Notes: generated by a model not told the origin, from the sequence alone. Shown: positions 1 to 46,109, counted from the stretch's first letter. The stretch: 64,000 bases of DNA from Mobula hypostoma (GCF_963921235.1 NC_086107.1:94676001-94740000); one strand, 5' to 3'. Numbers and translations: made by a program.

Positions 1-2994
1 AGAGGGGTAGAAAAGTCAGAATCTTTCTTTCCCCAGGGTGGAAAAGTCAAGTTCTAAAGGACGAGGTGAGAAGGGGAAAGTTTAAAGATGAGTGGGGTAA
101 GTTTTTTTTTAAACAATGAGAGTGGTGGGTGCTTGGAATGGACTGCTGGGAGTAGTGTTGGAGGCAGATACAATAGTGGTATCAAAGAGACTGTTAGATC
201 CAGTACATAAATACGCAGGGCATGGGGGCATCTGGATCGTGTGCTGGTAGAAGGCATTGGTTCAGTTGTCATCGTCTCTGGTGCAGACATTGTGGGCCGA
301 AGAGCTCATTGCTGTTCTATAACAGTATCAGTTCGGCGTAAACAAGAATATGCAAGAGTGTGTGCGTCTAAGCTGAGGCAGTCGGTATTGCAGAGATGGC
401 ACAGAGACAGCTCAGAGACAGCTCCACACCCTCAAGTTCAAATTTAATTGTCATTCAACCGTACACACAGATACAGCCAAAGAAAGCAGTGTTTCTCCAG
501 GGCCAAGGTGAAAACCACAGTACCAACAGTCACACACAGCACAAAGCCCAATACAGCACACGTAATTATGGTAACAGAAAAACATAGGCGGTATACAGTA
601 GCCCTAGTCCCTGAGTGTCATGGTCTGCAGGTTGCTGGTGCAAGGGTTGTTCTCCTGGAGCCACGTTTCTGCAAGAACAAGCACGCGCAGTTCCCCATCG
701 CACGCTACTGCAGCCGCAAGCGCAATCTACCCAGTGAACACTGGGGGGCAGCGTTAATGGGAGGAAACATCCCCCAACCCAGCGTGGAATCCAGAGCACC
801 CTCTCCTCTCTCCCACACCACCTGTGCCTTTCCTCCCCTGGGCGGCTGCAACAGGCAATCCTGTGGCACAAGGGCCTGCTGCACCCAACACCTGAGGCCA
901 CGCAGCTCCCCTGCTATTGGTACACCAATGAACCAGTGTGTAAGACCATAAGACAGAGAACAGTACAGGGCCTTTGGCCCACTATGTTGTGCTGACCTTT
1001 TAACCTACTCTAAGATCAATCTAACCCTTCCCCCTACATAGCCCTCCATTTTTCTATCATCTATGTGCCTATGTAAGAGTTCCATAAATGCCCTTAATGT
1101 ATCTGCCTCTACCACCACCCCTGGCAATATGTTCCTATGTGAAACCCTACCCCTTGACATCCCCCCTATACTTTCCTCAAATCACCTTAAAATTATCCTC
1201 TCTTGTATTAGCCATTGCCACCCTGGGAAGAAGTGTCTGACTGTCCACTCGACCCATGTCTTTTGGCAGCTTGTATACCTCTATCAGGTCATCTCTCAAC
1301 CTCTTTCACTCCGAAGAGAAAAGCCCTAGCTCGCTCAACCTATCTTCATAAGATGTGGCCTCTGGTTCAGGAAGCGTCTTGATAAATCTCCATTGTACCC
1401 TCTCAAAAACTTCCATATCCTTCCTATAATGAGGCGACCAGAACTGAACACAATATTAGTTTAACCAGGGTTTTATAGAGTTACAACATTACTTTGTGAC
1501 TCTTGAACTCAGTACCCTGACTAACGAAGAATAATTAGACCATTTGGCCCATCGATTCTGCTGTGCCATTTGATCATGGTAACCTCTCGGTAACCTTTGA
1601 CACCCGAACTAATCAAGAACCCATCAACCTAAGCTTTAAATATACCCAATGACTTGGCCTTCATGGCTGTCTGTGGCAATGAATTCCACAAATTCACCAC
1701 CCTCTGGCTAAAGAAATTTCTCCTCATTTCTGTTCTCAAGGGATGTCCTTCTGTTCTGAGGCTGTGACCTCTGGTTGGTGTGATGTGTGGTCTGTGAGTT
1801 TATGACTCTAGAAGCTAAGTCGGGTTTTCAGACAGTACTGACAGAAGGAAGTTTGTAGATAAGGAACTGGAGGATCCCTAGATTAGATCTTCCAAGAATA
1901 CCAAAGTGACAGGAGGAGGAGCCATTGCAGAGGGAATCTCTATCGATAACGATACAGATAAGCATGGAAACGCAGGTTCCGCCGGATTTGTAAAGATAGT
2001 TTGGAAGTCCAGTTGTGAAGACCACACAAGATGTCAGTGGTGATGTGGGACATCCAGCAGCAAGGGCAGCATGGTGAGTAGTGGTCAGCGTAACACTATG
2101 ACAGACCCAGTGACCTGGATTCGAATCCCACCACTGCCTGTTAGGGGTTTTTTAATGTTTTCCCCATGGCTGTGGGCATTTCCTCCAGGTGTTCCAGACT
2201 CCTTCCACGTTCTAAAGGCTTTTGATTTAGTAGGTCAATTGGTCACAGGGGTGTAATTGGCTGCACAGGTTCGTTGGATCGAAGGGCCTGTTACCGTGCT
2301 GTATCTCTAAATTTAAAGAAAAATGTACAAAGTAAGCTCCCAGAAACAGCATGAGGTTACAGCCAATCAATCTGTATAGTTTTGATAATGGTGGTGTGGG
2401 AGATAAAGGCTGAGATGATCAATGGCTCCATTTAATTATCAGAGAATGTATACAATATACAACCTGAAATTCTTACTCTCCGCAGACATCCTTGAAACAG
2501 AAGAAAGGCTTTGTTTCAGAGAAAAGTTCCTATTTTCTTGGGATCTTTCACCACTGCACCAGCGCAGTGCAGACCTGCAGCGCGGACAGTGTGCTCGGAT
2601 CGCGAGTGTGGGGCCACCACCTGATTCAGATCAACCTGATGAAGGGTCTCAGCTTGAAACAGTGTTTATTCCTCTCCATAGATTCTGCCCGACCTGATGA
2701 GTTACTCCAGCATTTTGCATGTGTTGCTGTAGATTTCCAGCATCTGCAGAATCCCTTGTGTTTCTGATTCAGCACTGAGTTCTATCCATGAGTCACAATA
2801 CACACCCTAAGCAAATACTACAGCTGATGTGTTCACACCAAGGTAGATTTCTGCCGAGGGGCTTGGCCATTTGACACGGTTTTGTTGGTGTTGGTTAGAT
2901 TGGCTAAGCAACTGGGAGAACTGTTTTTTTTAAACAGTAGTAGGGTTTTTTTTCCTATATGCCAGTCTTAATTAGAGCCCTGTCATCGCTCTGT

Positions 2995-3330
2995 CACCAC
3001 AGCACAGTAGCGTTGCGGTTAGTGTAACACCTTACAGCACCAGCGATTGAAAGAATGGGGTTCAATTCCCACAGCTGTATGTAAGGATACTGTACATTCT
3101 CCCTGTGACTGTGTGGGTTCCCTCTGGTGCTCCTGTTTCCTTCCACATTCCAAAGACGTACCAGTTAGGGTTCGTAAGTTGTGGGCATGCCACGTTGGCT
3201 CCTGAAGCATGGTGACACTTGCAGGCTGCCCCCAGCACATTCTTGGACTGTGTTGGTTGTTGACGCAAACGACACATTTCATCCCACGTTTCCATGTACA
3301 TGTGACAGAGAAAGCTAATCTTTTAATCCT
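2995..3330 (+). mobile_element. V-domain (HE1-like) tRNA-derived SINE; related copies near 2060, 6340, 22750, 25550, 27840, 40620, 42190, 42660, 52560, 53140, 53670 and 54150
   Basis: tRNA-like head plus the V-domain 'TTCTCCC.GTGAC.G.GTGGGTT.CCTC.GGTGCTCC.GTTTCC.CCAC'. Confidence 0.75.
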
Positions 3331-4197
3331 TTATACTTTTTAAATGTCAGAAAACTAAGCATCACTATTTTGGATGCTGGAAGAGCTTGAGTTGGGATGT
3401 CATGTTACAAATGTACAAGTCAATGACGGGACTGTATTTGCAGTCTCGTGTGCAGTTCTGGTCGCCCAGCTGTAGAAAGCATGTTGTTCAGCTGGACAGG
3501 GCTCAGAAAAGATTCACGAGAATGTTACCGGGACTGGAGGGCTAGAATTATAAGCAGAGGTTTATAAAATCATGAGATGTATAGAAAAGCTGGGTAGACA
3601 GAAACACACAAGGGTCTCGGCCCAAAACATCGATTCTTTATTGTTCCTCCAGCATTTTGCGTATGTTGCCCTGGATTTCCAGCATCTGCAGAATCTCTTG
3701 TGTTTGGGTAGTCATAGGCTTTTTACCACCCCTATAGTAGGGTTTCAAGGAAAGACTTAATAAAGGGTAGTGGGTGTATAGAGTGAGAGGCCAGAGGAAG
3801 TGATAGAGGCAGGTACGGGAACACGGATAGGGAAGAGAAAGGGTCATGAGCCAAATGTGGACAAATGGGACTAGCTCAGGCAACGGCTGATTTGAATAAG
3901 TTGGGCCAAAGGGCATCTTTCTGCGCTGTATAACTCAAATTAATTCTACTACTTTCTCAAATCGCTATCTTTACACGCAACTTAATAAGCATATCGGATC
4001 TTGACTAACATACGATTCAAAAGGCAGCACATCCAGCTCAGCACCCATTCCGTATTGGGGTATTGGCCTAACCCGGAGCAGGTCCTGAACCTGCAACTTC
4101 CTGAACCAGACTGTGAACCCTGGCTCTGCATGTGGATGTTGGGGCACTCACCATCTCCCCTCTCCGTTCTCACACACACCCCTCCCCACACCCCAAG

Positions 4198-4373: not shown

Positions 4374-5894
4374 GTGAGATTGTACGACAAAGGAGCATAA
4401 CTAGGCCATTTGACCCATCTTCTCCAATATTCCATCATGGCTGATTTATTATCCCTCTCAACCCCATTCTCCTGCCTTCACCCTGCAACCTTTGACACCC
4501 ATACTAATCAAGAATCTATCAACCTCTACTTTAAATATACCCATTGACTTGGCCTTCATGGCCGTCTGTGGCAATGAATTCCACAGAGTCACCACTCCTT
4601 GGCTAAAGAAGTTGCTCTTCATCTCAGTTCTAAAGGGACGCTCTTCTATTCTGAGTCTGTGTTCTCTTGTCCAAGACCCCCCCCCCACTATTGGAAAGAT
4701 CCTCTCCACTCCCACTCTATCGAAGATTTTCAATTTCAATGGGTTTCAATGACATCATCCTTCATTCCTCTAAGCTCCAGTGAGTATTGGCACAGAGCCA
4801 TCAAACGTGCGGTTAAGGCTGCATTGGGAGTGGACAATTCAGTGCTGAGTGATAAGAATACAAGGTACTGTTTGTTGAGTTTGTGTTTGGCCTCCCAATG
4901 CAGCAGACAAGGCAGAGGACAGTTGCTGTGGGAACAGGAAGGGAGGTTGAAATGAGAGGCAACTGAATGCTCATGGTGCTCATCCGCCCCCCCCCCCCAC
5001 CCCCAGTCTTAGAACATAGAACTTTGCATCACAGTACAGGCCCTTCGGCCCATGATGTTGTGCTGACCCTTTAACCTACTTTATGGAATAGCTATCTAAG
5101 AGTTTCTTAAATGTCCCAAATGTATCTGCCTCTACCACCACCCCTGTTAGGGGGTTCCAGGCATCCACCACTCTGGGTAAGAAAACTCATCTTTGACCTC
5201 CTCCTTATACTTCCCTCCAATCATCTTAAAATTATACCCCCTTGTATTTGTCATTTCTGCCCTGGGGAAAAAGTCTCTGGCAGTCCACTTGATCTGTGCC
5301 TCTTACTATCTTATACGCCTCCATTAAATCACCTCTCATCCTCCTTTGCTCCAGAAAGAAAAGCCCAAGCTCGCTCAACCTCTCCTCATAAGCCATGCTC
5401 TCTAATCCAGACAGCATTCCAGTAAATCTCCTTGCAACCTCTTTAAAGCTCCCATATCCTTCCTATCATGAAATGACCAGAACTGAACACAACACTACAG
5501 AGTTTTATACAGCTGTAACACTACCTTGCAGTTCTTGAACTCAACCAGTGAAGGCCAACACACCATACGCCTTCTTAACATTGTTCAGGCTTCCAGTTGT
5601 ACCTCCCAGTTTCTCGCTTGATTCCCTCCTCCCCTACCCACTTTCCCCCTCATCTGATCTCACCTATCGCCTCCCACTCTTCCTTATTCTGGCCTCTTCC
5701 CCATCCGTTCCAGTCCTGTTGGGTCTCAGCCCGAAACATCGACTGTTTATTCCCCTCCATAAATGCCCAGTTCCACCCGCATTTTGTATGCTTTTCTCCT
5801 TCATAAAGGGTTGCATCTCCGATGTAGCAGGGGGCAGATGTACCTGAAGCAGTTTCTCAATCAATCCCAATTCTTGTCACTTCTCTCTCTGCAG

Positions 5895-8361: not shown

Positions 8362-8447
8362 GAATGGAGCCCAGAGATGGAGAACATAACCGACAAGAAG
8401 GGGAAAGGACAGAAGGAAGGAGATAAGGTCGTACTTCAGAGTTTAAG
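8362..8447 (+). CDS. PACSIN-family exon (linker start): EWSPEMENITDKKGKGQKEGDKVVLQSL
   Basis: CAG ending 8361, GTAAAC at 8448; 86 bp, phase 0 to 2. Continues the conserved FE|EWSP junction. Confidence 0.88.
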
Positions 8448-11764: not shown

Positions 11765-12705
11765 GTAAGCTCTATGTCATCAACTTATGCCTCGTAATGT
11801 TCCCCCAAAACGCAGGGCCGGAAGCTGCAGGAGAGAAGGGACTCTCGAGGTTGAATTCCTCCCCCTCCTGTACCCTCTGAACCTCATGGTTGGAAGACAT
11901 GCTCTCAATCTCTGTCTCTCCCTGAACTTTGCACAGTAATACGCAGCCTGTCCCTACAGATCAATGTTGCTATTCATGTTCTTTAAAAGACTCCTTGCAT
12001 TCTACTAAACCCAAAAATGTCATAGAGTACAACAGCACAGAGAGAGACTCTTCAGCCCATCTAGTCTGTGCTGGCCTGGTCTGTCTTGTCCCAACTACTG
12101 TTCTATAGCCCTCCAGACCTCCCTCATCCGTTTAAGACATTTAACATTTATCTCTCATTTAATACTTCTCTTAAATGTTACCAGTTGAACTCACATCTAC
12201 CACTGGCAGCTCATTGTATTCATCCACTCCTTTGTTCCTTGTATTACCCCATCTAACCAGTCTGGGATAAGGGGTTTATCCTGGATTGCCTACCTTTTTA
12301 TCCCATTCTGATACATGTGTTCATTTCTTCTATTATTCTTGTAGTTATCACCCCTTTTCTGGTCTTGTCTACCAGTACAAACATCATCTAATATTTATCC
12401 TATTAAACCTCACTTCAAAGAGTTTCAAAGCTTTGATCTCTTTCCTGGTGAAGGGTTCCTGCCTGCTCACAATTCCCAGATAATTCTAACCTTCGATCAT
12501 GTTCATCGTAATCATTTTTATGCTCCTTTTTCTGTATTATTTTTAGAAGTTCTCCACCTACTGTCATCAGAAAGTTTCCCTCACTGCCTGTTCTTTTCAC
12601 ACTTTCATTTCCTTACCCTTTTCTTTCCTGCTCAATCCTCCTGTTCCATTGAGTTTAGTTTCTTTACATCCACTTCTACTGGAGTTATCTCAGCAAAGCC
12701 ACCTC

Positions 12706-12743
12706 CAGTCCTGATGAAGGGTCTCAGCCCGAAACATCGACTG
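12706..12743 (+). ncRNA. Minimal type-I hammerhead ribozyme motif in a Penelope-derived unit (about 12705-12840)
   Basis: cagtc CTGATGA a ggg-tctcag-ccc GAAA c ATC gactg: stem I cagtc/gactg, conserved core, NUH triplet. Confidence 0.72.
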
Positions 12744-12941
12744 TACCTCTTCCTAGAGATGCTGCCTGGCCTGCTGCATTCACCAGCAACTTTGATGTGT
12801 GTTGCTTGAAATTCCAGCATCTGCAGATTTACTCGTGTTCCAGTTCTGCATTGTTCTGTTTGTTGAAGCCCTCACCAGTCTGTGCTAGCCCCTCTAACTA
12901 TGCCATAGTCATACAGCATTTCTTCTTTGATGGCCCCTCCA

Positions 12942-13195: not shown

Positions 13196-14950
13196 TAAGA
13201 TCATAAGACATAGGAACAGAATTTGGCTATTTGGCCCAACGAGTCTGCTCCACCATTCCATCATGGCTGATTTTCCCCTCTCAACCCCATTGTCTTGCCC
13301 TCTCCCCATAACCATTGACACCCTGACTAATCAAGAACATATCAACCTCTGCTTTAAATATGCTCAATATCTTGCCCTCTACAGCCATCCGTGGCAATGA
13401 ATTCCACAGATTCACTACCCTCTGGTTAAAAAAATTCCTCCTCATCTGTTCAAAATGGTTATTCCTCTACTCTAAGGCTGTGCCCTCTGGTCATAAACTC
13501 CCCCACTATAGGAAACATCGTCCCTATCGATACTCTATACATTTCAATAAGGCCCCCACCCCGTCTCATTCCTCTAAACTCCAGCGAGTACAGGCCGAGA
13601 GTCATCAAACACTGCTCATACATTAACCCACTAACTCCCAAAATAATCCTTGTGAACCACCTCTGGACCCTCTCCAATGTCAGCACATCCTTTCTTAGAC
13701 AAGGGGCCCAAACCTCTCACAATACTCCAAATGTGGTCTAACCAATGCCTTATAAAGCCACAGCTTTACATCCTTGCTTTATTCTAGTCCTCCCGAAATG
13801 AATGCTTTGTCACCACTGACACAGCCTGTGAGTTGACCTTTAGGGGAATTCTGCACAAGGACTCCCAATTCCTTGTACCTTTGATTTTTCAATTTTCTCC
13901 TCATTTAGAAAATAGACTACGCTTTTATTCCCTCCACTATATTCTATCTGCCGTTTCTTTGCCCATTCTCCCAGTCCGTCCTCCTTCTGCAGACTCCCTG
14001 CTTCCTCAACACTACCCACCCTTCCACCTACCTTTGTATCAATTGCAAACTTGGCCACAAAGCCATCAGTTCCATCATCCAAATTACTGACATACAATGT
14101 GAAAAGAAGCGGTCCCAACACTGACCTCTGTCACCAGCAGCCAACCAGAATAGGACACCTTTATTCCTACTCTGCCTCCTGCCAGTCAGCCAATCTTCTA
14201 CCTGTGCTAGTATCTTTCCTGTAATACCATCGGCTCTTATCTTGTTAAGTAGCCTCATGTGTGGCACCTTGACAAAGATCTTATATAAATCCAAGTAAAT
14301 AACATACATTGATTTTCCTTTGTCTATACTGGCGGTTAACTACCTGAAGAACTCCAACAGATTTGTCAGGCAAGATTTCGCCTTAAGGAAACCATGGTGA
14401 CTTTGCCCTACTTTATCACACACCACGAAGTACCCAGAACTTCGTCCTTAATAACTAACTCCAACGTCTTCCCAACCACTGAAGTTAGGCTAACTGGTCT
14501 GTAATTTCCTTCCTCTTTCTCCCTCCCTTCTTAAAGAGTGAAGTGACATTTGCCATTTTCCAGACCTCCAAAATAATCTATTGATTCCTGAAAGATCATT
14601 ACTGATGTCTCCACAATCTCTTTAGCTGCCTGTTTCAGAACTCTGGGGTGTAGTCCATCTTGTCCAGGTGACTGTAGCTTTACACCTTTCAATTTGCCAT
14701 GCACCTTCTTAGTAATAGCAACTAAACTCACTTCTGCCCCGACACTCTCGCATTTCTGGCATACTACAGGAATTCTGCAGATGCTGGAAATTCAAGCAAC
14801 ACACATAAAAGTTGCTGGTGAACGCAGCAGGCCAGGCAGCATCTCTAGGAAGAGGTGCAGTTGACGTTTCAGGCCGAGACCCTTCGTCAGGACTAACTGA
14901 AGGAAGAGTGAGGACTGGCATACTGTTAGTTTCTTCCACAGTGAAGAATG
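13196..14950 (-). mobile_element. CR1-type LINE 3' half, degraded
   Basis: 'SPGQDGLHPRVLK', 'IYLDLYKIFVKVPH', 'LGPLLFTLYV...KFAIDTK', 'LERVQR...' fragments. Confidence 0.82.
14858..14895 (-). ncRNA. Minimal type-I hammerhead ribozyme motif in a Penelope-derived unit (14766-14914)
   Basis: Minus strand reads agtc CTGACGA agggtctcggcct GAAA c GTC aactg. The unit is flanked by the 10-bp direct repeat CTGGCATACT. Confidence 0.68.
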
Positions 14951-16817
14951 ACTTGATTGTTGAAGACACGCTTCCTAATAAATTTTGTTCCTCTGAAATG
15001 CAGGGTTAAGTTCAAATTTGATGCTAGTTGTTTTGTTAACTAGGAGGCTGGGACAATTCTGCATTAAGGAATGCCCCTTTTTAATTAGGATTAAAGCAGA
15101 AAAGAGGAGTTTTCTCTATTTACAGCAGCACTTGGTCTGAGGGCCTGCAGATCACAGAGCACTCTGGATCAAAGTGAATTGACCTTACTAGCATTATACT
15201 GGATTGGTGAAGACTGCATTCAGCTCAGCCAAGTATATAATGCTTAGATTGATGGGATCCAGATAGTCAGATGGTTATCACATGAGGTAAGTGATACAAA
15301 CATCCTAACTCCAGCCTTCATTTACGTGCCTGTTAAATGTCATATCGGTTCATAGCCTCCTCTACTGTCATGATGCGGCTGATTTCAAGTTGGAGAGAAA
15401 CACCACATTTTCCATCTGGGTAGCCTCCAACCTGACGGCATGAGCATCAATTTCTCTAACTTCCGGCAGTTTTCTCCCCTTCCCTTCTCTCCTTTCCCAA
15501 TCCCCATTTTGACTCCCTTTTTACACTGTCTTCTCATCTGCTTATCAGCTCCCTCTTCCTTCCCTTTCTCCCATGCTCCACTATCAGATTCTTCCTTCTT
15601 CAGCCCTTTACTAATCTACCTATTATCTTCCAGCTTCTTGCTTCCTCTCCCCCTTACCGGCCAACTTGTCCTCCTCCCCCACCGTATTCTCCCATCTTTT
15701 CCAGTACTGATGAAGGGCCTTAGCCCAAATCAACTGTTTATTTCCCCTCCATAGAAGCTGCCTGACCTGCTGAGTTCCTCCAGTATTTTGTGAGTCTTCC
15801 TCTAGACGTCCAGCAGCTGCAGATTCTCTGGTGTTTAGCAATTGGGAGTTCCCCCATAGATCATCTTGTCTGCCGTCCAGCTGGGATTTGGTCAGGGGAT
15901 TGTGAAGCAGAATGGGAAGCTGAGCAATTAAGTATCAGCACATTTAAGAAAAAGATAAGTTGGCAATTATTAAGTTTGTGAGGTCTTGGACCAAATCATT
16001 GCTTGCATGACTTGGGTAGAGGCTGACACCTAGTAACTGGAAGCAAGCTGGGTGATTTATTTTGGACACTGGGCAGAAAAATGAAATTATTCCAGAAATG
16101 CTGTATGTGAGGAGGAGGACATGCAATTGGGGAGATTTGACAGTGTTGCCAGAAACAAGAATTCTAGCTACACGAAAAATCAGGTGGGCTGGAGTTGCAT
16201 TCCTCCAACATCTTGGTTATTTCCTTTTGAGTTTTAGACCTGGAACAGACAAGTTATAAGGGATGGAAAAATAATGCTTTTCTCTGCTTGAGGCCATTGT
16301 AAACAAGCAGTTAAGGCAGATCAGGAAACGTTTGTGTGATCAGTGATTTGCAGAATAATATGCCAGGACTTGGGAACCAAGTTGCTCACGCTTGCTCTGT
16401 ATTCATATGTCAGAGCAACTCACACGAAATGCTGGAGGATCTCAGCAGGTCTGGCGGCATCCATGGAGGGGAAATAAAGGCAGTATGGGCCGAGACCCTT
16501 CATCAGGACTGGAAAGGATGGGAGAAGCCAGAATAAGAATCTGGGGGGTGGGGAGGGGAACAAATACACATGACAGGTGAGGGGGAAGGAGGGTATGAAG
16601 TAAGAAGCTAGGAGGTGATAGGTGGAAGAGGTAAAGGGCTGAGAAGGAAGGAATCTGATAGAAGGGGAGAGCAGACCATGAGAGAAAGGGAAGGAGGAGA
16701 GTCACCAGAGCGAGGTGATGGGCAAGTGAGAAGAAAAGGGATAAGACGGGAGCCAGAAAGGGGAATGGAAGAGGGTGGATGAGAAATCAATGTTCACGCC
16801 ATCAGGTTAGAACATGA

Positions 16818-29185: not shown

Positions 29186-31338
29186 CTGTTCGTGGGAGAG
29201 AGATGCGGAAAAACAAGTGATTAATAAAAGCAATTCCAAAGGAGAGAGAAGAACAGTGGCACTTTGATGAGCTGAACAATAAAAAATAGTTTCCAGGTTG
29301 CCCTGCGACTACAGGGGATAGCAAGGATACAGCCATCAGTCTTGCGATTAGTAAGAAGATAGAATCAACTATCTGGCCCACCGAGCCTGCTTCACCTTTC
29401 AATAAGATCATGGCTGACCTGGCCATGGACCTAGCTTCATCTACCTGCCTTTTCCCCATAATCCTCTGCTATGTAAATATCTAAGTTTTAAATATATTTC
29501 AAGGTATAGGCTCTACTGCTTCCCTAAGTAGAGAATCTAACAGATTCACTATCCTCTGGGAAAAACGGTTCCTCATCTCCATCTTAAGTTGCCTCCTTGA
29601 ATCTTGAGGCTACGTCCCCTAATTCCAGACTCACATATCAGTGGAAACAGCTTTCCTGCCTGTGTCTTACCCATCCCTTTCATAATTGCATGTTTCTATA
29701 AGACTCCCTTTCATTCTTCTGAATTCCAACAGGTATAGTACCAGGTGACTCAAATCTCTCCTCACAGGTCAACCCCCTCATCTCTGTAATCAACCTCATG
29801 AACCTCCTCTGCACTGCCTTCAAAGCCAGTATATCTTTCAAGTCAGGAGACCAGAACTACATGCGGTACTCCAAACGCGGCCTCACCATTAACCTGTATA
29901 GTTGTAGCACAACCTCCCAGTCCTTCAATTCAGTACCACCACTAATGAAGACCAGCATTCTATTTGCCTTCTTGATAACCTGTTGCACCTGCAAACCAAC
30001 TTTTTGTAATTCATGCACAAGCACTCCCAAGTCCCTCTGCACAACAGCATACTGCAGTCTTTCACCATTTAAGTAATCATCTGATCGTCTAGTTTTCCTG
30101 TCTAGATCTGTCTGCAGATTCTCCGCATCATCTGCACAGTTTGCTTTTCCAGATCTGGCTGTAGTCATTGGCCACGCTTTACTCATCAAGAATCTATCAC
30201 ACTTGCCTTAAAAAAAAAAGTACTGTCCTTGAAGGAAGAGTATTTTGAACCCTCATCACTCTTAAAAAATATTTTATATTGTGTATTAAGTGGTGAATTT
30301 CTAGTTCTAGACTCTCCCACACATCCACTTAGTCAACGTTTCTCAGGATCAACCAAGTCACCTCTCACTCCTCTGAATTCCAGTGGATATCCCATGACAA
30401 TCACAGATATTCCTTTTGTCCAATCGATGACCCTCCCTGCAACTTCAAACCAATGCACTCTCACCTTGAGCAACACTCACAAAATGCTGGAGGAACTTGG
30501 CAGGTTGGGCAGCATCTGTGGAGGGGAATAGACAGTCATGTTTTGGGCTGAGACCCTTCATCAGGACTGGAAAGGAAGGGGACCTTCCCAGTTTTAATGA
30601 AAGGTCTCCAACCTTAAGCATTAACTGCTTCTCTTTCTGCAGATGCTACCTGATCTACAAGAGTTTCTCAGCATTTTCTGCCTTTTATCCCACCAGAGCC
30701 AAATCTTTTATAAGATGACTTGCCGAGTCCAGGTATTATTTGATTCGACTTACCCTGCAAGGTTAACGTTTGGGTCATACTTGGTGCTGCTGCTACCATG
30801 GGTACAGAAGTCTGAAGTCCCATACGAGCAGGTCATGAACCAACCTGCACAATTCAAACCCTACCTCAGCAACAGAACACTATGGACCACGTGTTACACT
30901 ACCATAGACTTGTCTCTGTATAAACATGAGAGAGAGAGTGGGGGGGGGGGAGAGGCAGGGACAGCCCACAGGTGTTGCCACACATTCCAGCACTAGCACA
31001 GCATGCCAACAATATTCAGCAGAACAAAAGGTAACACAACAAAACAGAACATACCAAGCAATTAAGCAACAACAGCGAAACAAGCTCGTTCCTTCCTTCT
31101 TCCCACGCAGATACACAGTGCTCAACCCCAGGGCAGCCTTTTCTGTAGCCTCCAGTGCTGCACGCTTTGTAAGTGTAACCTCAGCCCTATATTCTGCATT
31201 CTCCTTATTGATTTTCCCATGTACTTCCTTAAGTACCTATGCTTGAAGTTATCTGTATTAATGGACTGCAAAACTTGTTTCTTTTTCCTCGTGACAATAA
31301 TAAATTAATACCGATGCCAAGACTGCAGTTAGACCTAC

Positions 31339-31761: not shown

Positions 31762-34700
31762 CGATGCCAAGCTCTTCTTCTGTCACTCAGTCTCCGAGCC
31801 CACTCCTTTGGCAAGAAGTCCCCAGCCCGCACTGATAACCACTTCTCCTGTCTCCAACCCTCCTCCTCTTCTTGGATACCCCCCTCTGGTCGTCTGCCTG
31901 CTCTGGATCTTATCTCTAATTGCCGACAAGACACTAACCGGCTCAACTTCAGCATTCCTCACTCCTCCTTGAACCTTACCCCTTCTAAGCTGCCCTCCAC
32001 ACCACTAAATGTGCAAAGGGGGTGTTGCTGTCGTGTTGGGGAGTGACCTCTACCTTTCTGAGGTCAAGTGGTGACTCTCAGACACCTCCTTTTACTTACC
32101 CCTTGAGAAAGGCCCCAGTCTGGACCATCAGAAAATTGCCTCCAACACCATCACTAACCTCATCAACTCTGGAGAACTCCCATCCACAGCCAGCAAACTC
32201 ATAGCTCCCTTACTCTGCACTGCTCATTCCGACCTTCTACCCAGATCCACAAACCTGACAGCCCAGGTAGACTTATCGTCTCTGCCTGCTCGTGCCCTGA
32301 CACCTAAACTCTATTCTGTCCCCCTTGGTTCAGTCCCTTCCCACCTATATCCATGACACTTCCCAAGCTCTTGATCTCCTCAACAACGTTCAATTCCTTG
32401 GCCCTGACTGCCTCATTTTCACCATGGATGTCCTGTCCCTATACACTTTTATCTCCCATCGTGGCCTTAAAGCTCTCTGCTTCTTACTCAGCAAAGGAAC
32501 CAACCAGTTCCTCTCCGCCATTTCATCACGGCTGATCTCGGATTCCATTCAACCCCATTCACCCGCCCTCTCACCATACCTCTTGATGCCCCGACCATTC
32601 AGAAATCTATCAACTTCTGCTTTAAATATATCTACAAACTTGGCCTCAACCATAGTCTGTGGCAGAGCATTCCACAGATTCACCACTCTTTGGTTAAAAA
32701 AATTCCTCCTTATTTCTGTTCTAAAAGGTCACTCCTCAATTTTGAGGCTGTGTCCTCTAGTTCTGGATACCCCTATCAAATGAGGCATCCTCTCCACATC
32801 CACCTTATCTAGTCTTTCCAACATTTGGTAGGTTTTGATAAGATCCCCACACATTCTTCTAAATTCCCGTGAGTACAGGCTGAAAGCTGCTAGATGCTCC
32901 TCATATCTTAACTCCTTATTTCCCAGAATCTTTTCTTTTCAAATCTTTTGTTATATTATACAACAGAAATAACACGAGTACACTGAAGTACAACACATAC
33001 AATGTCCCAAAAAAGATATTATCTTAAAGATTAAAAAAAAATTTGTGATAACAAAAAAAACCTACTAAGCAGAAAAAGTGAGAAAAAAAAACCATTAGGT
33101 GTACAACCCCGGAGCCATGTGTCATACAAAAACCTTCTAAAAATAAACATCAAACCACCAGCAAGGAAAGAAAATATACCAAAAAATTTACAATTAGATC
33201 GTGGAAAAAAAATCTATCAATTAGCTCAAATAATAACGAGCAAATGAGCCCCATCTTTTCTCAAAATCAAATAAAGGTTCAAAGGTTCGACTTCTAATTT
33301 TCTCCAAACTAAGACATAGCATCACTTGAGAGAACCATTGTGACAAAGTGGGAGCTGATATATCCTTCCACTTCAACAAAATGGCCCTCCTAGCTATCAA
33401 TGTAACAAATGCAATAACATGTTGGTCAGACACAGAAATATCATGAATATTTTGAGGAATTATTCCAAAAAGCACAGTTAATTTATTAGGTTGTAGATTA
33501 ATTTTAAGTGCTTTATAAATTGTTGAAAAATCTGACTTTCAAAACTGTTCCGATATAGAACAAGACCAAAACATATGTGTCAGTGTAGCTATCTCCGTTT
33601 TACATCTATCACAATAACTATCAACATTAGAAAAGATTTTTAAAGTCTCTCCTTCATCAAATGATAACGATGTACAATTTAAAACTGAATCAATGAATGG
33701 CTAGCACAAATTGAAGAAGAGTTAACCAGCTTCAAAATCCGCATCCAATCCTCCCGTCATAAAAGTCAAATTGAGTTCCTTTTCCCAATCCTGTTTAATC
33801 TTAGATAAAGGACGCTTATCCCACTGTAATAATAAATTATAAACTCTTCCACTAGAACCCTTGATCGAAGGATTCATATTCATAATAGTATCTAACAGGT
33901 CAGCCTCCAATATGTAAGGAAAACTACTTAAATATTTTTGTAAAAAATGTCTAACTTGAAGGTATTGCAGAAAGTGCGAGTATGAAAGAGAATATCAATT
34001 AATTGTCCAAATGACATCAATCTATCTTCTTTAAATAAATCCAAAACAGAATTAGTACCTTTATTTTTCCAAAATAAAAAAATTGGATCACTCAAAGAAG
34101 GCTTAAAAAAGTAATTTCGATAAATTAAACTACAAAGTTTAAATTTTTTAAGATTAAAAAAATTGCGGAACTGGAGCCAAATTTGTAAAGAATGCTTAAT
34201 CACAGGATATAGGTTTAAGCTAGCAACTTCAGCTAATTGTATAGGTAAAGCAGCTCCCAATAACGAGATTAAATAAAACTGTTTTACAACTTTCAGTTCC
34301 AGGTCTACCCACATTGGCCGATCACTCTTATCAACCCAATATAACCAGAAAGACATGTATTTTGATCCTCAGCCGAGATTTTAGGAAAAACAATCTTTCA
34401 TAAAAAAGCAAACAACAGGAATTCTGCAGATGCTGGAATTTCAAGCAACACACATCAAAGTTGCTGGTGAACACAGCAGGCCAGGCAGCATCTCTAGGAA
34501 GAGGTAGAGACGGTACCTCTTCCTAGAGATGCTGCCTGGCCTGCTGCGTTCACCAGCAACTTTGATGTGTGTTGCTTTCATAAAAAAGCATTCATTTCAG
34601 AAGAATCTAACAGACATTGGGATTTATAAAGTTCAGCATAAAAATCTTGAAAAATCTTATTAATTTCTTCATATTCCTGAGCCAAGGTACCATCTTTCCT

Positions 34701-37700: not shown

Positions 37701-39352
37701 CAGCATTATCTCCTTGCTTTTATATTCTATTCTGCTTGAAACAAATGCCAACATTGCATTTGCTTTCTTTACCACAGACTCAACCTGTGAATTAACCTTC
37801 TGGGAGTTTTGCACAAGGACTCCTAAGTCCCTCTGCACCACCACCATCCTCCATCTGGCAGAACTGGTCCTCATTCTCAACAAATTCTCTTTCAGCTCCT
37901 CCCATTTTCTCCAGACTCAAAGAGCACTCACAATGCCTCCAGCTATGCCTGCCCTTTCATTGGTTATGTAGAACAGTCCGTGTTCTGAGCTTTCCATGGA
38001 AATACTCCCCAACTCTTCCTGCGCTACAATGACGACTGCGTTGGTGCTGCTTCATGCACCCATGCTGAGCTCATCAATGTCATCAATTTTGCCTCCAACT
38101 TCTACATTGCCCTTAAATTCACTTGGTCCATTTCTGACACCTTCTAACCTTTCTCAATCTCTCCGTTTCCATCTCTAGAGACAAACTGTCTACTGGTATC
38201 TTTTATAAACCTACTGAATTCCCATGGTTATCTTGACTATACCTCTTCCCACCCGAAAAAAAGCTATTCCCCACTCTCAGTTCCTTCATCTCTGCCACAG
38301 GATGAGACTTCCCTTTCCAGGACCTTTCTTCCAAGTAATGGGGTTTCCTTTCCTCTACCACTGATGCTGCCCTCAATTACATCTTCTCCATTTCCCAGAC
38401 ATCTGGATTCCAGCCACTTTAACAGGGATAGCATGCCTCTTGCCCTCACCCCTTACCCAACACATCATTCTCTGCAGCTTCTGCCACCTTCACTGGGATC
38501 CTACCACCAAACACATCTTTCTCTCTTCCAACTCTCCACAGGGTTCGTTCCTCCTGTAATTCCTTTGTCCATTCGTCACTCCCCACTAATCTCCCTTCTG
38601 ACACTTACCCCTGCAAGCAACCAAAATGCTACATCTGCCCATTTACCTCCTCTCTTAACTTCATTCAGGGCCCCAAACACTCCTTCCAGATGAGGCAACA
38701 CTTCACCTGCAAACATGTTGGCATCATCTACTGTATCTGGTGTTCCTAGTTGTAGCCTCCTCTACCACCGCTGAGACCCAATGTAGGTTGTGGGACCACT
38801 GTTGTGAACCTTTGCTCCATCCACAAAAAGCACTATTTCCCAGTTGTCAACCATTCCAACATGTCAGTCCATTTCCTCTTCTTTTGGCACAATGAGGCCA
38901 CTCTCAGGGTGGAGGAGCAACATATCATATTCTGTCTGGGTAGTCTCCAACCCACACTGATTTCTCCCTTCTGGTAAATTTTCCCTCTCCCTTCTTCTAT
39001 TCTTCACTCTGGCTTCTTAACTCTTCTCCTCATCAGCTTATCACCTCTCCCAGTACCCGTCCTCCTTCCCTTTCCCTCATGGTCCACTCTCCTCTCCTAT
39101 CAGATTCCTTCTTCTCCAGCCCATTATCTTTCCTCACTCACCTGGCTTCACCTATCACCTTCTAGATCGTCCTCCTTCCCCTCCCCCTACCTTTTCACTC
39201 TGGCATCTTCCCCCTTCCTTCCCGTCTTGAAGAAGGGTCTTGGCCCGAAACATCAACTGTTTATTCATTCCCATAGATGCTGCCTGGCATACTGCGTTTC
39301 CCCAGCATTTTGTGTTTTGCTCTGGATTTCCAGCAGCTGCAGAAACTCTTGT
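31762..39352 (+). mobile_element. Older decayed Penelope-like element, split by nested CR1 and L1 insertions (pieces about 31762-32520 and 37838-39352)
   Basis: RT remnant 'VQSLPTYIHDTSQAL...IFTMDVLSLYT', RY.DD-like codons near 38022, GIY-YIG-like remnant near 38720-38780, terminal hammerhead-bearing repeat at 39222-39352. Confidence 0.8.
32931..37568 (-). mobile_element. L1-clade LINE with ORF1, APE endonuclease and C-terminal Cys/His knuckle; RT domain absent
   Basis: 16-bp TSD CTTATTTCCCAGAATC (32915-32930, 37569-37584). ORF1 'DLETRSRQKNIRIVGVQEG' at 36618-37148; endonuclease fragments 35181-35708; knuckle CDRCKTEIATLTHMFWSC near 33560-33615. Confidence 0.9.
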
Positions 39353-41207
39353 GTACAAGGTTAATGGTAGGATTCTTAGCAGTGTGGAGGAATGGAGGGA
39401 TCTTAGGATCCATATCAATTGATCCCTCAAAGTTCCTGCATACGTTGATAGAGTGGTAAACAAGGCAGATGGTGTGTTACCTTCCTTAGCTGGGAAATTA
39501 AGTTGAAGAGCCACAAGGTAATGCTGCAGTTCTATAAGACTCTGGCTAGACCATCCTTGGAGTATTATGCTCAGCTCTGGTCAACTCAGTACAGGAAGGA
39601 TGGGAAAGAGGGTACAGAGGTGCACCTGGATTAGAGGGCATGTCTTATGAGGAAAGGTTGAGCGAGCTAGGGTTTTTCTCTTTGGAGCAAAGAAGGATTA
39701 GTAGTGACATGATAGAGGTGTTCAAGAGATAAGAGGCATAGACCAAGATGACAGTGAGAGACTTTTTCCCTACTATACATTAAGCAGGTCAACCCCAGGT
39801 TTCAGATTGTTTGTACAAATTCCTACGAAGTGTATAAACATGGGCATTGAACACCAAATAGGTCTAGGTGCAACACTTGCAGCAATTAATAACCTTCCTG
39901 TGTTACTTGCAGCAGTCCTAGAACCTACCCTAACATAAACACCAGAGATTCTGCAGATGCAAGGAATCCAGAGCAACACACACTAAAAACTGGAGCAGGC
40001 CCGGCAGTATCTATAGAAATGAATGACAGTCGACATTCAAGCCGAGATCCTTCATCGGTGTCCTAACTTGCTGAGTTCCTCCAGCATTTTGTGTGTGTTG
40101 CAATGAACCTTCTGTATCAGCTTCTGTGATCAGTGAATACCGTAATCGGCAGCAGGCACACTTGGGCAAAGTACGACAAAGCAAACCGGTGCAGCACGAT
40201 ACCACAGTGGTCAGTGTAACACTACTCCAAAGGGTGGAGGGGGAAGCTCCTTGAAACCTAGCGAATACTGAGAGGCTTCGATAAAGTGAACATGGAGAGG
40301 ATGCTTCCTATAGTGGGGGAGTCTAGGACCAGATGGCACAGCCTCAGAATACAAGGACATTCCTTTGGAACAGAAATTAGGAGCGATTTCTTTAGCCAGA
40401 AGGTGTTGAATTAGTGGAATTCATTGCCACAAACTTGCTGTGGAGACCAAGTCATTTGGTATATTTAAAGCAGAGTTTGATAGGTTCTTTATTAGTCAGA
40501 GTGTTAAAGCTTATGGGGAGGAGGCAGGAGAATGGGGTTGAGAGGGCAAGTAAACCACCATGATGGAATGATGGGCCGAACGGTCTAATTCTGCTCCTAT
40601 TGTCTTATTATAGAGACGGCAAACCGGGCTCAATTCTGCTGATATCTGCAGAGAGTTTGCACGTTTTCTCTGTGATCACATGGGTTTCCTCCGAGTGCTC
40701 CAATTTCCTCTTGCATTCCAGAGACGTATGGGTTAGTAGGTTAATTGGGTCACGTGGGTGACTTGGTCTCATTGGGCAGAAGGCCTGTTACCATCTCCAA
40801 ACTAAATTCAGCAGACGGTACAAATCTAATCATGTTTGTGAAAGTTGGAAGGAAATGCTTCAGGAAAGAAATGGCACCACACTGCCCCCCCCCCACAACC
40901 CCACCCAGACATTAAAGAGACTTTTCCCTATGTAAGCTGGTCCAGTTAATTGGCCAGTCTCAGTGACCCTGCACTTTGGCAGCCAAGGCATTAGTCAAGC
41001 GCTTTTATTATGCCTGAAAAGTCAAGAACTACAAATGCTGGAAATGTGAAGTGGAAGCAGAAAGGGATGGGAACACTCAGCAGTGCAAGGGGCATCTGTG
41101 GAGAGAGCTAAGATTCCACTTTGTAATTTCACTCCTTGAAATGAGTGCAATGAGAAACAGCGTTCATTTGCTAAGTTGCATTCTGCAGCATGAAAATATT
41201 TTTTATA

Positions 41208-41234: not shown

Positions 41235-41278
41235 CCACACTCAGCGACTTGAACACTACATTTTATAGGGGTGTTTTA

Positions 41279-42154: not shown

Positions 42155-43127
42155 CTGCAAAGAAAAAGTTAGATTAAAAAGGGAAATGAGCTTTATTTGT
42201 CACGTACGTCGAAACATATGGTGAAATGCATTGTTTGTGTTAAGTCAAATCACTGAGGATTGCGCTGAGCTGCCCTTGAATGTCACATGTTTCTGGCGCC
42301 AACACAGCATTCCTAAACACACTAAGCCTCACCCAGAGGAAACCCACACATTCACAGGGAGAACGTACAGACAGCGGGCGGCAGGAATGAACCTCGATCT
42401 TGCAGTCGCTGCTAACTGCTAAACTACAGTGCCACACGCACACATATATACTCTTGTTCTCGTCCAGCTGAGTCTAGGCCATACAGTCACACAACACAGC
42501 AATACCCCAACTCATCCAGACCAATCAAGATGCCCACCTACATTACTCTGACATGGCCCACCTAAACTTCTCCTATCCATGTCCCTTGTCTGAGTGTCTT
42601 TAAATGTTGTCCCAGTACTTCCTCAGGCAGTTTGCTCCATATACAGGCCAGCCTCTGTGCACCAACTCACTAACCCTACCCAGTACATCTTTGGGATGTG
42701 GGAGGAAACCGGAGCACCCGGAGGAAACCCACATGGTCACGGGGTGAAGGTACAAACTCCTTACCGACACGGGCGGAATTGAACCCGATCTTACAGTGGG
42801 AGGTGTAAAAGCTCTGCGTTAACCGTTACGCTACCACGCCGCCCAGTAATACAGTTATCCATCATCATTGCTTTAAAGTCTGAATGAAGCATTCAAGGAT
42901 CAACTTTATTTGCCTTGTATGTACATTTACATGTATCAGGGATTTGCTGTGGAGTGTCAGTCAGAGCGCTACATGCAACAACAAAAACCAACATTCAACA
43001 ATTATAAAGAATTATATAAAAATAAAGTTAGAAGTATGGATATGGAATAAAATGAGTGTAAATATATAAACACCGTGTATTTACAATGTAACCCAGTGAT
43101 GGGGGTAATAGATAGAGGGGGGTAAAT

Positions 43128-44731: not shown

Positions 44732-45039
44732 TAAAGGCATCCGTTAGTCTTGCGAGACCATGGATCTGCGCCTGGAAAGTCTTCACTCTCCAGGGCGCAG
44801 GCCTGGGCAAGGTTGTATGGAAGACCAGCAGTTGCCCATGCTGCAAGTCTCCCCTCTCCACGACACCAATGTTGTCCAAGGGAAGGGCATTAGGACCCAT
44901 GCAGCTTGGCACCAGTGTCGTCGCAGAGCACTGTGTGATTAAGTGCCTTGCCGAAGGACACAACACACGTTGCCTCGGCTGGGGCTCGAACTCATGACCT
45001 TCAGGTCGCTAGTCCAGACTACCTGGCCACGTGCCCACT
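44732..45039 (-). mobile_element. Same SINE family, copy 2
   Basis: B box GTTCGAGCC; near-identical body to 43128-43440. Confidence 0.72.
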
Positions 45040-46109
45040 ACATTATCTGGTTATATACCTTATATACATCTATTTAGTTAAATGACAATAAACTTGACTT
45101 GAAATCATGATTAAATCACTTGGATATTGTTCATGAGTGACCTAGATACTTAATTGAGATTGAGAGAATTTCCCAGTTGATGATACAAAAAATGGGGACA
45201 TCAAACTTTCAGCAAAGCCAGGGATGTTCCCTCCATGGTATGGAAGTTGAGAGGAGATCTGACCCCAGCACTGAAAAACTCGGGAGTCTGGGCTGGGCAG
45301 GATAGTGAGGCTCTGTTTTCACTGGTGAGATGGCCAAGAACCATTGGATTAAGGAAACTGGCAAAATTGCCAGGAATATATAATAAGCCAAGGAACTAAA
45401 CAGGTCAGGCAGCATCTATAGAGGGAAATGGATGGTCAATGTTTTGGATTGCGACCTTTTGTCGGGACTAGAGGAAAAGGGAGTAGCCGACATGAAAAGG
45501 GTAAGGGGAGGGAGTGGAGCAAGAGCTGGTGGTTGATAGGTGGATCCAGGTGAAAGGGAAGGGGTGATAAACAGACGGGGAGGGGGAGAGTGGGAATGAT
45601 GGACAAAGCTAGGAGGTGATAGGTGGAAATGACAAAGGACTAGAAAAGATGGAACCTGATAGGAGAGGATTTCATGTGATTAATAAATCAATCTGATCTA
45701 ATAAAGGGAGGAAAGAGTGGCATGAAGATTTCTTTTTGCCCTCCTTTTATACAAAGGCACTTTGGGTCTGGAAGTATGCTGCTGGGGTTACGTAGTAGTG
45801 CAGACGTGCTCAATTGCGGTGCTCAAAAACAAATGGCTGAGTACTTAAATGGGGGGAAAGAAAAAGAATCACACAGACCACGGGAAGAGGGGTGAAGGCA
45901 TGGTAGGCAGCCATTTGATTTGTCAAATTTTGTGAGTAAAATTGTCTCCTCTAACATGGTAACATCTGAGATACGATACACCCAATTGGATACATGGCAA
46001 TGGGCAAACTGACTTGAAATGACTGCGTCATCTCCTCCCTCACCCAAATGCAAGTTACACTGAGAGAAAGCCATTTTGTTAACCAGTGATGCCTAATAAA
46101 AGGGCTTAC

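What the first reader, a model, noticed from the sequence alone, without database searches (positions are those of the whole stretch)
2630..45470. Dispersed family of minimal hammerhead ribozymes on short Penelope-derived units
Seen: a unit of about 130-170 nt recurs with consensus cagtc-CTGATGA-a-gggtctcggccc-GAAA-c-GTC-gactg. Copies are at about 2636(+), 3611(+), 5711(+), 12706(+), 14858(-), 15702(+), 16480(-), 18737(-), 28300(-), 30533(-), 39222(+), 40027(-) and 45433(-). This is a type-I hammerhead layout: stem I cagtc/gactg, CUGANGA and GAAA core, stem II, NUH cleavage triplet. Stem III is reduced to the palindrome ACGU with no loop. Established: Penelope-like element termini and retrozymes carry such minimal hammerheads, which are thought to cleave as dimers. 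Inference: this genome has a very abundant hammerhead-carrying family (about one copy per 4-5 kb here) inside the pre-mRNAs of both genes. Most copies look damaged (ACGT to ACAT, CGAAA to TGAAA/CAAAA). I cannot tell whether this family is already annotated.
Basis: partly seen in the sequence, partly recalled or inferred. Interest (0 to 1): 0.85.

Follow-up and report, generated by a model that had tools for sequence, protein, structure and literature searches.

The report
Decayed hammerhead motifs on Penelope-element tails
The repeated unit is the tail end of a Penelope-like jumping gene that carries the small "dimer-type" hammerhead ribozyme motif already known from such elements; it is extremely abundant in this cartilaginous-fish genome, but every copy in this window is mutated.

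Summary
Twelve of the 13 listed sites match the 38-nt motif (0-2 hits in shuffles). The 13th is found by BLAST of the unit.

The units are not a discrete 130-170-nt element. They are 5'-truncated 3' ends of a Penelope-like element (PLE). In two copies the motif lies 240-252 nt after the end of a decayed ORF, on the sense strand. Relatives of that ORF carry RVT_1 plus GIY-YIG domains.

The motif has the core and the four hallmarks published for PLE minimal hammerheads (PMC4209133).

No copy in the window passes a strict descriptor, and copies decay neutrally with CpG loss. The motif is nevertheless almost invariant between two subfamilies whose tails differ at 19 of 79 sites. In a DNA run of the same organism, 77,826 contigs match the unit, and the majority letter restores ACGU.

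Cleavage is untested. Rfam models do not detect the motif, and folding energies favour a rival hairpin. Verdict: a correct catch and a new member of a known kind. The notable point is its abundance.

The parts
12704..12839 (+). Best-preserved unit (younger subfamily). Hammerhead motif at 12706-12743, tail to 12839. All core letters are present. G16.2 is mutated to A (12736), which breaks the ACGU palindrome.
   Evidence: Unit ends come from loose ends at 12704/12707 and 12839. The descriptor fails as the copy stands and passes with the run's majority G at 12736.
14768..14897 (-). Second copy of the younger subfamily. Motif at 14858-14894. It keeps ACGUC and the core (N7=C), but C11.1 is U and the first pair of helix I is broken.
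37816..39355 (+). Longest copy: a 5'-truncated PLE. It holds a decayed RT C-terminal part and GIY-YIG ORF (37816-38998, stop at 38975), then a decayed motif at 39222-39259 (UUGAAGA core), then the tail to about 39355.
15342..15836 (+). 5'-truncated PLE copy. GIY-YIG C-terminal remnant at 15342-15541. Motif at 15702-15736, with deletions in GAAA/stem III. Tail to 15836.
16414..16775 (-). 5'-truncated copy with about 260 nt of 3' UTR upstream of the motif (16478-16511). The GAAA/stem III region is deleted.
2635..2777 (+). Unit copy. Motif at 2635-2663 with the stem III/cleavage region damaged. Tail complete.
3603..3705 (+). Unit copy holding only the 3' half of the motif (3610-3635), with an internal deletion in the tail.
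5680..5775 (+). Unit copy. Motif at 5711-5745 with a 3-nt deletion in the CUGAUGA box. The 3' part of the tail is missing.
18703..18880 (.). Head-to-head inverted pair: a minus copy at 18703-18777 (motif 18738-18771, G12 to A) and a plus copy at 18760-18880.
28248..28345 (-). Decayed copy. Motif at 28300-28335 (A9 to C, helix II decayed). MED25-sense, intronic.
28540..28950 (+). 5'-truncated copy with about 300 nt of 3' UTR. The motif is largely deleted. Tail present.
30469..30590 (-). Unit copy. Motif at 30533-30569 (G12 to A, 1-nt deletion). MED25-sense, intronic.
34411..34577 (.). Inverted pair of tail-only copies of the younger subfamily, both truncated at the same point. The arms are 94.8% alike and form a near-perfect hairpin.
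39940..40070 (-). Unit copy. Motif at 40027-40058 (U4 to C, GAAA damaged).
45401..45476 (-). Weakest listed copy. The motif at about 45433-45470 is heavily decayed.
   Evidence: Below threshold.

Best explanation
The repeat is the 3' end of a Penelope-like retrotransposon, probably Neptune-like. Most insertions are 5'-truncated, so what litters the window is the last 70-500 nt, and once about 1.5 kb.

About 245 nt after the ORF stop and about 100 nt before the insertion's 3' end, the element's sense strand encodes a minimal type-I hammerhead. It has helix I of 5 bp (CAGUC/GACUG), the CUGAUGA box, one extra A, helix II GGGU/GCCC with a tetraloop, GAAA, and a loop-less 2-bp helix III (ACGU). Cleavage is predicted after GUC.

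ACGU is a palindrome, so the catalytic fold can form only when two copies pair. These could be two RNAs or two pLTR copies on one tandem transcript, and the element's own protein may help. This is inferred by analogy with published PLE hammerheads.

In active master elements the likely job is trimming read-through or tandem transcripts. The copies in this window are dead relics, decaying neutrally and by CpG loss. None should cleave, and they have no role in the host gene.
For: Shown here:
- Recurrence above chance: 12 loci against 0-2 in shuffles.
- 5' ends are scattered and the 3' end is shared. Loose ends place the unit's 3' end at 12839, and a conserved upstream continuation appears in other genomic copies.
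- The stretch 38150-39082, read with X at 8 stops, has 270 relatives at E<=1e-3, 12 of them at E<=1e-10.
- I took 12 of the 150 listed relatives to Pfam, chosen for length or rank. 7 have RVT_1 + GIY-YIG, 3 have GIY-YIG only, and 2 have nothing.
- tblastn places these relatives at 37816-38998 and 15342-15541, on the same strand as the motifs.
- The distance from the stop codon to C3 is 252 nt in one copy and 240 nt in the other.
- A CX4CX2C linker is visible in P0001.
- With the run's majority G at 12736, the 12706 copy passes a strict descriptor (helix I 5 bp, helix II 4 bp, tetraloop, palindromic III). That descriptor finds 0 hits in 40 simulated windows.
- Between the two subfamilies the 38-nt motif differs at 1 of 37 comparable sites, a CpG site. 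The tail differs at 19 of 79 (Fisher p=0.003).
- In DNA run X1, no site in 12704-12734 shows another letter in >=10% of depth.

From papers:
- All four descriptor-independent hallmarks of PLE minimal hammerheads are present (PMC4209133).
Against: - No Rfam hammerhead model matches, even at E<=10.
- 0 of 13 window copies pass the descriptor.
- No compensatory change was seen in any helix.
- Nearest-neighbour energies favour a rod-like hairpin or duplex that pairs GAUG with CGUC. For the consensus, the dimer MFE is -33.7 kcal/mol against -19.9 for the double-hammerhead fold.
- Old copies have decayed slightly faster in the motif than in the tail: 100/450 against 146/873 mismatches, p=0.017. There is therefore no selection on resident copies.
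- In the one PLE studied biochemically, the hammerhead cut only when the protein was present and was not needed for insertion in vitro. No RNA-seq reads ended at its cleavage site (PMC11167929, passages).
- Naiad PLEs thrive without hammerheads (PMC8557442).
Confidence: 0.8

Rival explanations
1. The short units are a separate non-autonomous, retrozyme-like or SINE-like element. On this view it borrowed the PLE tail, has a defined 5' end at the hammerhead, spreads on its own, and may do so through small circular RNAs from tandem copies.
For: - The 12706 copy starts exactly at helix I.
- In run X1, 607 contigs break at 12707 into flanks with no consensus (agreement 0.34).
- A few head-to-tail joints exist, for example 12809->12706 in 3 contigs and 12824->12707 with 7 nt between.
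- A 2026 preprint derives animal retrozymes from PLE pLTRs and reports them in one chondrichthyan (10.64898/2026.07.22.740005; abstract and Results part 1 read).
Against: - There is no tandem array of the unit in the window.
- The 5' ends of the 17 copies are scattered, from inside the tail to 1.4 kb upstream.
- Two copies run without a break into the PLE ORF.
- Head-to-tail joints are a handful among 77,826 contigs, and none is shared with the three putative RNA runs apart from single contigs.
Confidence: 0.12
2. The conserved 38-nt block is not a working ribozyme. It would be a hairpin recognised by the PLE protein (for RNA binding or priming) that resembles a hammerhead by descent or by chance.
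For: - The predicted lowest-energy fold is a rod that sequesters core letters.
- The fold of the whole unit is no more stable than shuffles (z = -1.1).
- Published PLE minimal hammerheads cleave poorly in vitro (PMC4209133).
- Cleavage is dispensable for insertion in vitro (PMC11167929).
Against: - Every invariant core letter is kept between subfamilies whose tails have diverged by about 24%.
- The extra nucleotide after A9, the G10.1-C11.1 pair and the palindromic 15.2/16.2 are the hallmarks of the published family. A protein-binding hairpin would not need them.
- The C3/G8 mutant and rescue data in the Anolis element show true ribozyme chemistry in a related PLE.
Confidence: 0.1
3. The intronic copies have been taken over by the host and cut or regulate MED25 (or neighbouring) pre-mRNA.
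For: Five copies lie in the sense orientation inside MED25 introns: 28300, 30533, 34512, 40027 and 45433.
Against: - Every one of them has a broken core or lacks the motif.
- Copies decay at or above the rate of the neighbouring tail.
- A single minimal motif cannot fold alone.
Confidence: 0.02

Closest known systems
Minimal type-I hammerhead ribozymes in the pseudo-LTRs of Penelope-like elements (Cervera & De la Pena 2014, PMC4209133). Dimer cleavage was reported by Lunse, Weinberg & Breaker; I saw that paper only as a citation, and it is not held.
   Same: - Core boxes.
- Helix I of 4-5 bp.
- Unpaired nucleotide between A9 and G10.1.
- G10.1-C11.1 pair.
- Loop-less palindromic helix III, which implies action as a dimer.
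- Location on the sense strand of a PLE outside the ORF.
- Mostly single, dispersed, truncated copies.
   Different: - Helix II is short here (4 bp plus tetraloop), whereas 6-8 bp is described as usual for metazoan PLEs.
- The host is a cartilaginous fish, which that paper's main text does not mention.
- The copy number appears far above the 4,000-9,000 motifs quoted there for coelacanth and Xenopus.
Poseidon element PAc of Anolis carolinensis (Frangieh et al. 2024, PMC11167929)
   Same: A vertebrate RT + GIY-YIG PLE with a stem-III-less hammerhead in the pLTR. Insertions are 5'-truncated and share a 3' 'tail' signature.
   Different: - In PAc the ORF starts inside the hammerhead.
- Here the motif is seen 240-252 nt after the ORF stop. 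Its position relative to the next ORF start could not be seen, because no full-length copy of this family lies in the window.
- The linker motif suggests Neptune rather than Poseidon.
Non-LTR retrozymes of animals (Cervera & de la Pena 2020, PMC7229834; Li et al. 2026 preprint)
   Same: Type-I hammerheads that need dimers in vertebrates, kinship with PLE pLTRs, and very high copy numbers (126,247 motifs in axolotl).
   Different: Retrozymes are tandem arrays of 170-400-nt units expressed as circular RNAs. Here copies are dispersed singles or inverted pairs, and they are physically continuous with a PLE ORF.

Membership tests
Hammerhead ribozyme, minimal PLE type | Invariant core: C3 U4 G5 A6 N7 G8 A9, G12 A13 A14, A15.1-U16.1, H17 | tested here: met
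   Present in the family majority sequence, that is the 12706 copy with the run's majority G at 12736. 2 of 13 window copies (12706, 14858) keep all core letters, and the other 11 carry at least one core change or deletion.
Hammerhead ribozyme, minimal PLE type | Helices I and II flanking the core; helix III reduced to a palindrome (dimer type) | tested here: met
   The descriptor gives helix I 5 bp, helix II 4 bp, loop 4 nt and a palindromic inner pair CG on the majority sequence. It finds 0 hits in the window as it stands and 0 in 40 simulations.
Hammerhead ribozyme, minimal PLE type | Hallmarks outside the search descriptor: extra nucleotide between 9 and 10.1, G10.1-C11.1 pair, palindromic 15.2/16.2 | tested here: met
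   Read directly from the sequence CUGAUGA-A-G...C-GAAA-CG-UC. The criteria are quoted from PMC4209133.
Hammerhead ribozyme, minimal PLE type | Covariation (compensatory changes) in the helices | tested here: inconclusive
   No compensatory pair was seen among the 13 copies. The two subfamilies are identical in the motif, so there is conservation but no covariation. Other PLE families of this genome would be needed.
Hammerhead ribozyme, minimal PLE type | Match to curated covariance models (Rfam hammerhead families) | tested here: not met
   No hammerhead hit at gathering score or at E<=10 in the whole window. By my inference this is expected, because the motif lacks the helix III hairpin.
Hammerhead ribozyme, minimal PLE type | Site-specific self-cleavage | not testable with these tools
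   Only contigs were available, and these cannot show RNA ends. No bench data.
Penelope-like element (EN+) | Single ORF with reverse transcriptase followed by a C-terminal GIY-YIG endonuclease | tested here: met
   Relatives of the decayed ORF at 37816-38998: of the 12 taken to Pfam, 7 carry RVT_1 + GIY-YIG and 3 carry GIY-YIG only. The window aligns across both domains. Pfam on the decayed ORF itself found nothing.
Penelope-like element (EN+) | High 5' truncation, partial tandem or inverted arrangements, hammerhead near the 3' end | tested here: met
   Scattered 5' ends. Inverted 5'-truncated pairs at 18.7 and 34.5 kb. Inverted and a few head-to-tail joints in DNA contigs. Motif about 100 nt from the 3' end. 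No pLTR-ORF-pLTR unit of this family is complete in the window.
Neptune clade of PLEs | Extra Zn-finger-like CX2-5CxxC motif in the RT-EN linker | tested here: met
   CKQPKCYIC (C-x4-C-x2-C) lies just before the GIY-YIG part of P0001. The criterion comes from PMC8557442. No RT phylogeny was made, so the clade is provisional.
Non-LTR retrozyme | Head-to-tail tandem arrays of short hammerhead units | tested here: not met
   Tandem Repeats Finder finds no array of the unit. Only rare 'goes back' joints occur among 77,826 contigs.

The most novel reading that the evidence does not exclude
This ray- or shark-type genome may hold the largest hammerhead reservoir yet seen. A Neptune-like PLE lineage could have left on the order of 10^5-10^6 tails, with a large share of the younger subfamily still carrying an intact minimal motif.

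The unit is present in thousands of putative RNA contigs. Closely spaced sense copies, or inverted pairs in introns, could then form working dimers or long hairpins. These might cut host pre-mRNAs or feed small-RNA pathways.
Probability: 0.1. Interest if true: 0.6.

Novelty: new member of a known kind. Interest (0 to 1): 0.3.

Why it matters
It extends the PLE-hammerhead association to a cartilaginous fish. My searches of the held library and text look-ups in the main hammerhead/PLE papers found no specific report for this group. Repeat libraries such as Repbase or Dfam could not be consulted and may already hold the family.

It also shows a clear contrast. The ribozyme block is nearly frozen between element subfamilies, while every resident copy decays freely. 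That pattern is what selection at the level of the transposing RNA predicts.

The very high copy number makes this genome a good place to count intact and broken motifs, and to look for cleavage ends in vivo. The biological role of PLE hammerheads is still open.

Tried and rejected
- Exact pattern search: 0 hits, too strict for decayed copies.
- Rfam at both thresholds: no hammerhead. Only sub-threshold miRNA-like hits on the 34.5-kb hairpin.
- The whole genome is not held.
- Word-index protein search of the decayed ORF in 'longer' mode found nothing, and Pfam on it found nothing. The full HMMER search then succeeded.
- Pfam on nine ORFs near long copies: nothing.
- Folding: the unit is not more stable than shuffles. 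The cofold does not favour the catalytic dimer. I treat this as weak evidence, because nearest-neighbour models ignore the hammerhead's tertiary core.
- Sequencing runs: no listed holder is on record as RNA, and X9-X11 are only guessed to be RNA.
- Reads laid were contigs only, so RNA starts, ends and circles cannot be judged. Table 6 listed no places where many molecules begin or end.
- The motif part has relatively less summed depth than the tail in the putative RNA runs than in the DNA run. The tool states that contig depth cannot rank parts, so I draw nothing from it.
- Summed depth in the unit is 10^5-10^6 times the flank depth, but the tool warns that this is not a copy number. I use it only as an order of magnitude, alongside the window's own density of 17 copies in 64 kb.
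- A hammerhead-like remnant upstream of the open PLE ORF at 63.0 kb aligns only weakly and was not used.
- The paper by Lunse et al. on dimer cleavage is not held.
- Earlier scan notes: none for this genome or this sequence. A word search returned PLE-hammerhead notes from other genomes, which did not alter my reading.
- Supplements of PMC4209133, which hold the alignments of vertebrate motifs, were not opened. They may already contain related fish sequences.


Full report
**Observation**

- A local-alignment scan found 12 loci with score >=38, at the coordinates and strands given. Five shuffles gave 0, 2, 0, 0 and 0.
- The 13th site (45433, minus) appears only when the whole unit is used as a BLAST query.
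- Only two copies lie within 3 mismatches of 33 nt of the consensus: 12711-12743 and 14858-14890.
- An exact core pattern has no match.
- Four further pieces of the same unit were not listed: 18760-18880(+), 28850-28950(+) and the inverted tail pair at 34411-34577. This gives 17 copies between 2.6 and 45.5 kb.

**What the unit is**

It is not a discrete 130-170-nt element.
- Copies share a 3' end, at 12839 in the best copy. There, contigs of a DNA run break into unrelated flanks.
- Their 5' ends differ widely. Some start inside the tail (34.5 kb), some at the motif (12704), and others 60-360 nt upstream (5711, 45433, 28866, 16480, 15702). One starts about 1.4 kb upstream (39222).
- Upstream of copy 39222 the plus strand reads as a decayed ORF. 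Translated with X at its 8 stops, it has 270 relatives at E<=1e-3 in a full HMMER search.
- Of the 12 relatives I took to Pfam, 7 carry RVT_1 plus a C-terminal GIY-YIG domain, 3 carry GIY-YIG alone and 2 carry nothing.
- RT followed by GIY-YIG is the defining ORF of endonuclease-positive Penelope-like elements (PMC4209133; PMC8557442).
- tblastn with ten of these proteins places the homology at 37816-38998 and 15342-15541. Both lie on the same strand as, and directly upstream of, motifs 39222 and 15702.
- The stop codon, or its aligned codon, lies 252 nt before C3 of the motif in one copy and 240 nt in the other.
- A C-x4-C-x2-C motif just before the endonuclease part fits the linker described for Neptune-type PLEs. 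I made no tree.
- Other PLE ORF remnants lie at 31795-32498(+), 27287-27439(+), 4963-4856(-) and 62434-61991(-). An open frame at 62979-63998(+) runs off the window.

**Anatomy of the motif**

In hammerhead numbering the majority sequence reads:
- helix I: CAGUC
- C3-A9: CUGAUGA
- one extra A
- helix II: GGGU-(CUCA/CUCG)-GCCC, with a G10.1-C11.1 pair
- G12-A15.1: GAAA
- C15.2, G16.2, U16.1, C17
- helix I: GACUG

The extra nucleotide after A9, the G10.1-C11.1 pair and the palindromic 15.2/16.2 pair are the features Cervera and De la Pena list as emerging independently of their search descriptor. A helix I of 4-5 bp is also typical there. Helix II is shorter here than the 6-8 bp they describe.

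A strict descriptor of my own accepts the 12706 copy once the majority G is placed at 12736. It accepts nothing in the window as it stands, and nothing in 40 simulated windows. Rfam's hammerhead models find nothing, even at E<=10.

**Conservation**

The window holds two subfamilies. The younger has four copies that are 91-97% alike: 12706, 14858 and the 34.5-kb pair. The older has thirteen copies.
- Between their majority sequences the 38-nt motif differs at 1 of 37 comparable sites, and that site is a CpG. The tail differs at 19 of 79 letter-to-letter sites (Fisher p=0.003). Counting gaps, the figures are 1/37 against 38/98.
- In the DNA run, contigs that match up to 12743 and then switch to the other subfamily's tail form the largest class of loose ends: 2,313 contigs.
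- The motif is therefore the longest block held fixed while the tail drifted.
- Among resident old copies the motif has decayed slightly more than the tail: 100/450 against 146/873 mismatches.
- The common changes are CpG transitions. The window's CpG observed/expected ratio is 0.38.
- Selection thus acted on the transposing lineage, not on the inserted copies.
- No compensatory change was available to test the helices.

**Abundance and arrangement**

- One DNA run of the same organism yields 77,826 contigs at least 80% alike to the unit. Of these, 9,205 are >=99% alike, 21,280 are 95-99%, 33,826 are 90-95% and 13,515 are below 90%.
- Summed depth in the unit reaches about 11.6 million, against about 12 in the unique flanks. 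The tool warns this is not a copy number.
- Together with 17 copies in 64 kb, it points to the order of 10^5-10^6 copies.
- At 12736 the run reads G in 72% of depth, which restores ACGU. The CpG sites 12735, 12738 and 12739 vary in 8-11% of depth. No other letter reaches 10% in 12704-12734.
- The window has two head-to-head inverted pairs (18.7 and 34.5 kb) and no tandem array.
- The run shows inverted joints and a handful of head-to-tail joints. These arrangements are described as typical of PLEs.

**Context**

- MED25 lies on the minus strand, with ten coding exons between 23759 and 60696. They are 91% identical on average to a stingray MED25, more than to the shark, skate, gar or cat proteins tried.
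- The host is therefore a cartilaginous fish.
- The copies at 28.3-45.5 kb are intronic. The five copies in the gene's sense orientation all have broken cores or lack the motif.
- For the copies at 2.6-18.8 kb I found only an SH3-like exon hint at 11533-11877(+).

**Mechanism and rivals**

Shown: the unit is a PLE 3' end carrying a hammerhead-type motif on the sense strand.

Inferred: active elements fold the motif as a dimer and cut after GUC, trimming tandem or read-through transcripts.

Points against the catalytic reading:
- The energy model prefers a rod-like fold.
- Metazoan PLE motifs cleave poorly in vitro.
- In the Anolis element, cleavage needed the protein, was dispensable for insertion in vitro, and left no RNA-seq ends.

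Rivals:
- A separate retrozyme-like short element is weakly suggested by copies that begin at the motif and by rare tandem joints. The scattered 5' ends and the ORF-bearing copies speak against it.
- A protein-binding hairpin without catalysis is not excluded.
- Host co-option is very unlikely.

**Novelty**

This is the known PLE minimal hammerhead in a new host group and at very high copy number.
- Three searches of the held library found no report for cartilaginous fishes. The main text of the founding paper does not mention them.
- A 2026 preprint reports PLE-related retrozymes in one chondrichthyan, without detail in the parts I read.
- Repeat databases could not be checked.

Noticed in passing
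window 34411-34577: Two tail-only copies of the younger subfamily lie head to head, truncated at the same point. They form an ~85-nt near-perfect hairpin. It gives sub-threshold hits to several Rfam miRNA models (best is mir-4529, 64.6 bits against a gathering score of 88). It sits in a MED25 intron.
   Followed up: partly
window 48296-52559: A Ty3/gypsy-type LTR retrotransposon inside a MED25 intron. Its direct repeats at 48296-48492 and 52363-52559 are 96% alike. It has long open frames of 380 and 705 aa with RVT_1, RNase H and integrase domains, and a DUF7041 frame upstream. I only described it.
   Followed up: partly
window 62979-63998 (+): A 340-aa frame without stops runs off the window end. 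It is 44-56% identical to the N-terminal and RT part of PLE proteins, so it may be a younger PLE. About 100 nt upstream of the homology (about 63023-63075) lies a weak hammerhead-like remnant: CUGGUGA, a different 6-bp hairpin, then CCCGAAAC.
   Followed up: partly
window 62434-61991 (-), 27287-27439 (+), 4963-4856 (-), 31795-32498 (+): Further PLE ORF remnants: three GIY-YIG remnants and one RT remnant. No recognisable hammerhead unit lies downstream of them. The stretch after the 62-kb remnant is AT-rich.
   Followed up: partly
window 6462, 22846, 42676, 52658, 53782, 54253: A different interspersed family with a conserved core (GGGAGGAAACCGGAGCACCCGGAGGAAACCCAC...). One copy lies next to a weak tRNA-like Rfam hit at 42765-42840(-) (24.5 bits, below the gathering score of 29). 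It looks SINE-like.
   Followed up: no
window 1523-1787, 4418-4682, 13241-13505, 32509-32773: Another repeat family of about 265 nt or more (D1), unrelated to the hammerhead unit. The copy at 32509 abuts the PLE RT remnant that ends at 32498.
   Followed up: no
window 12704-12847 (runs X9-X11 against X1): In the three runs guessed to be RNA, the unit is covered by 4,253-7,290 contigs while its unique flanks have none. The motif part carries a smaller share of the summed depth than in the DNA run. Contig depth cannot be interpreted this way, so this is only a pointer for a raw-read analysis.
   Followed up: no
window 11533-11877 (+): An open frame with a partial SH3_1 match (E 1.4e-5). This may be an exon of a second, plus-strand gene downstream of MED25's 3' end.
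   Followed up: no
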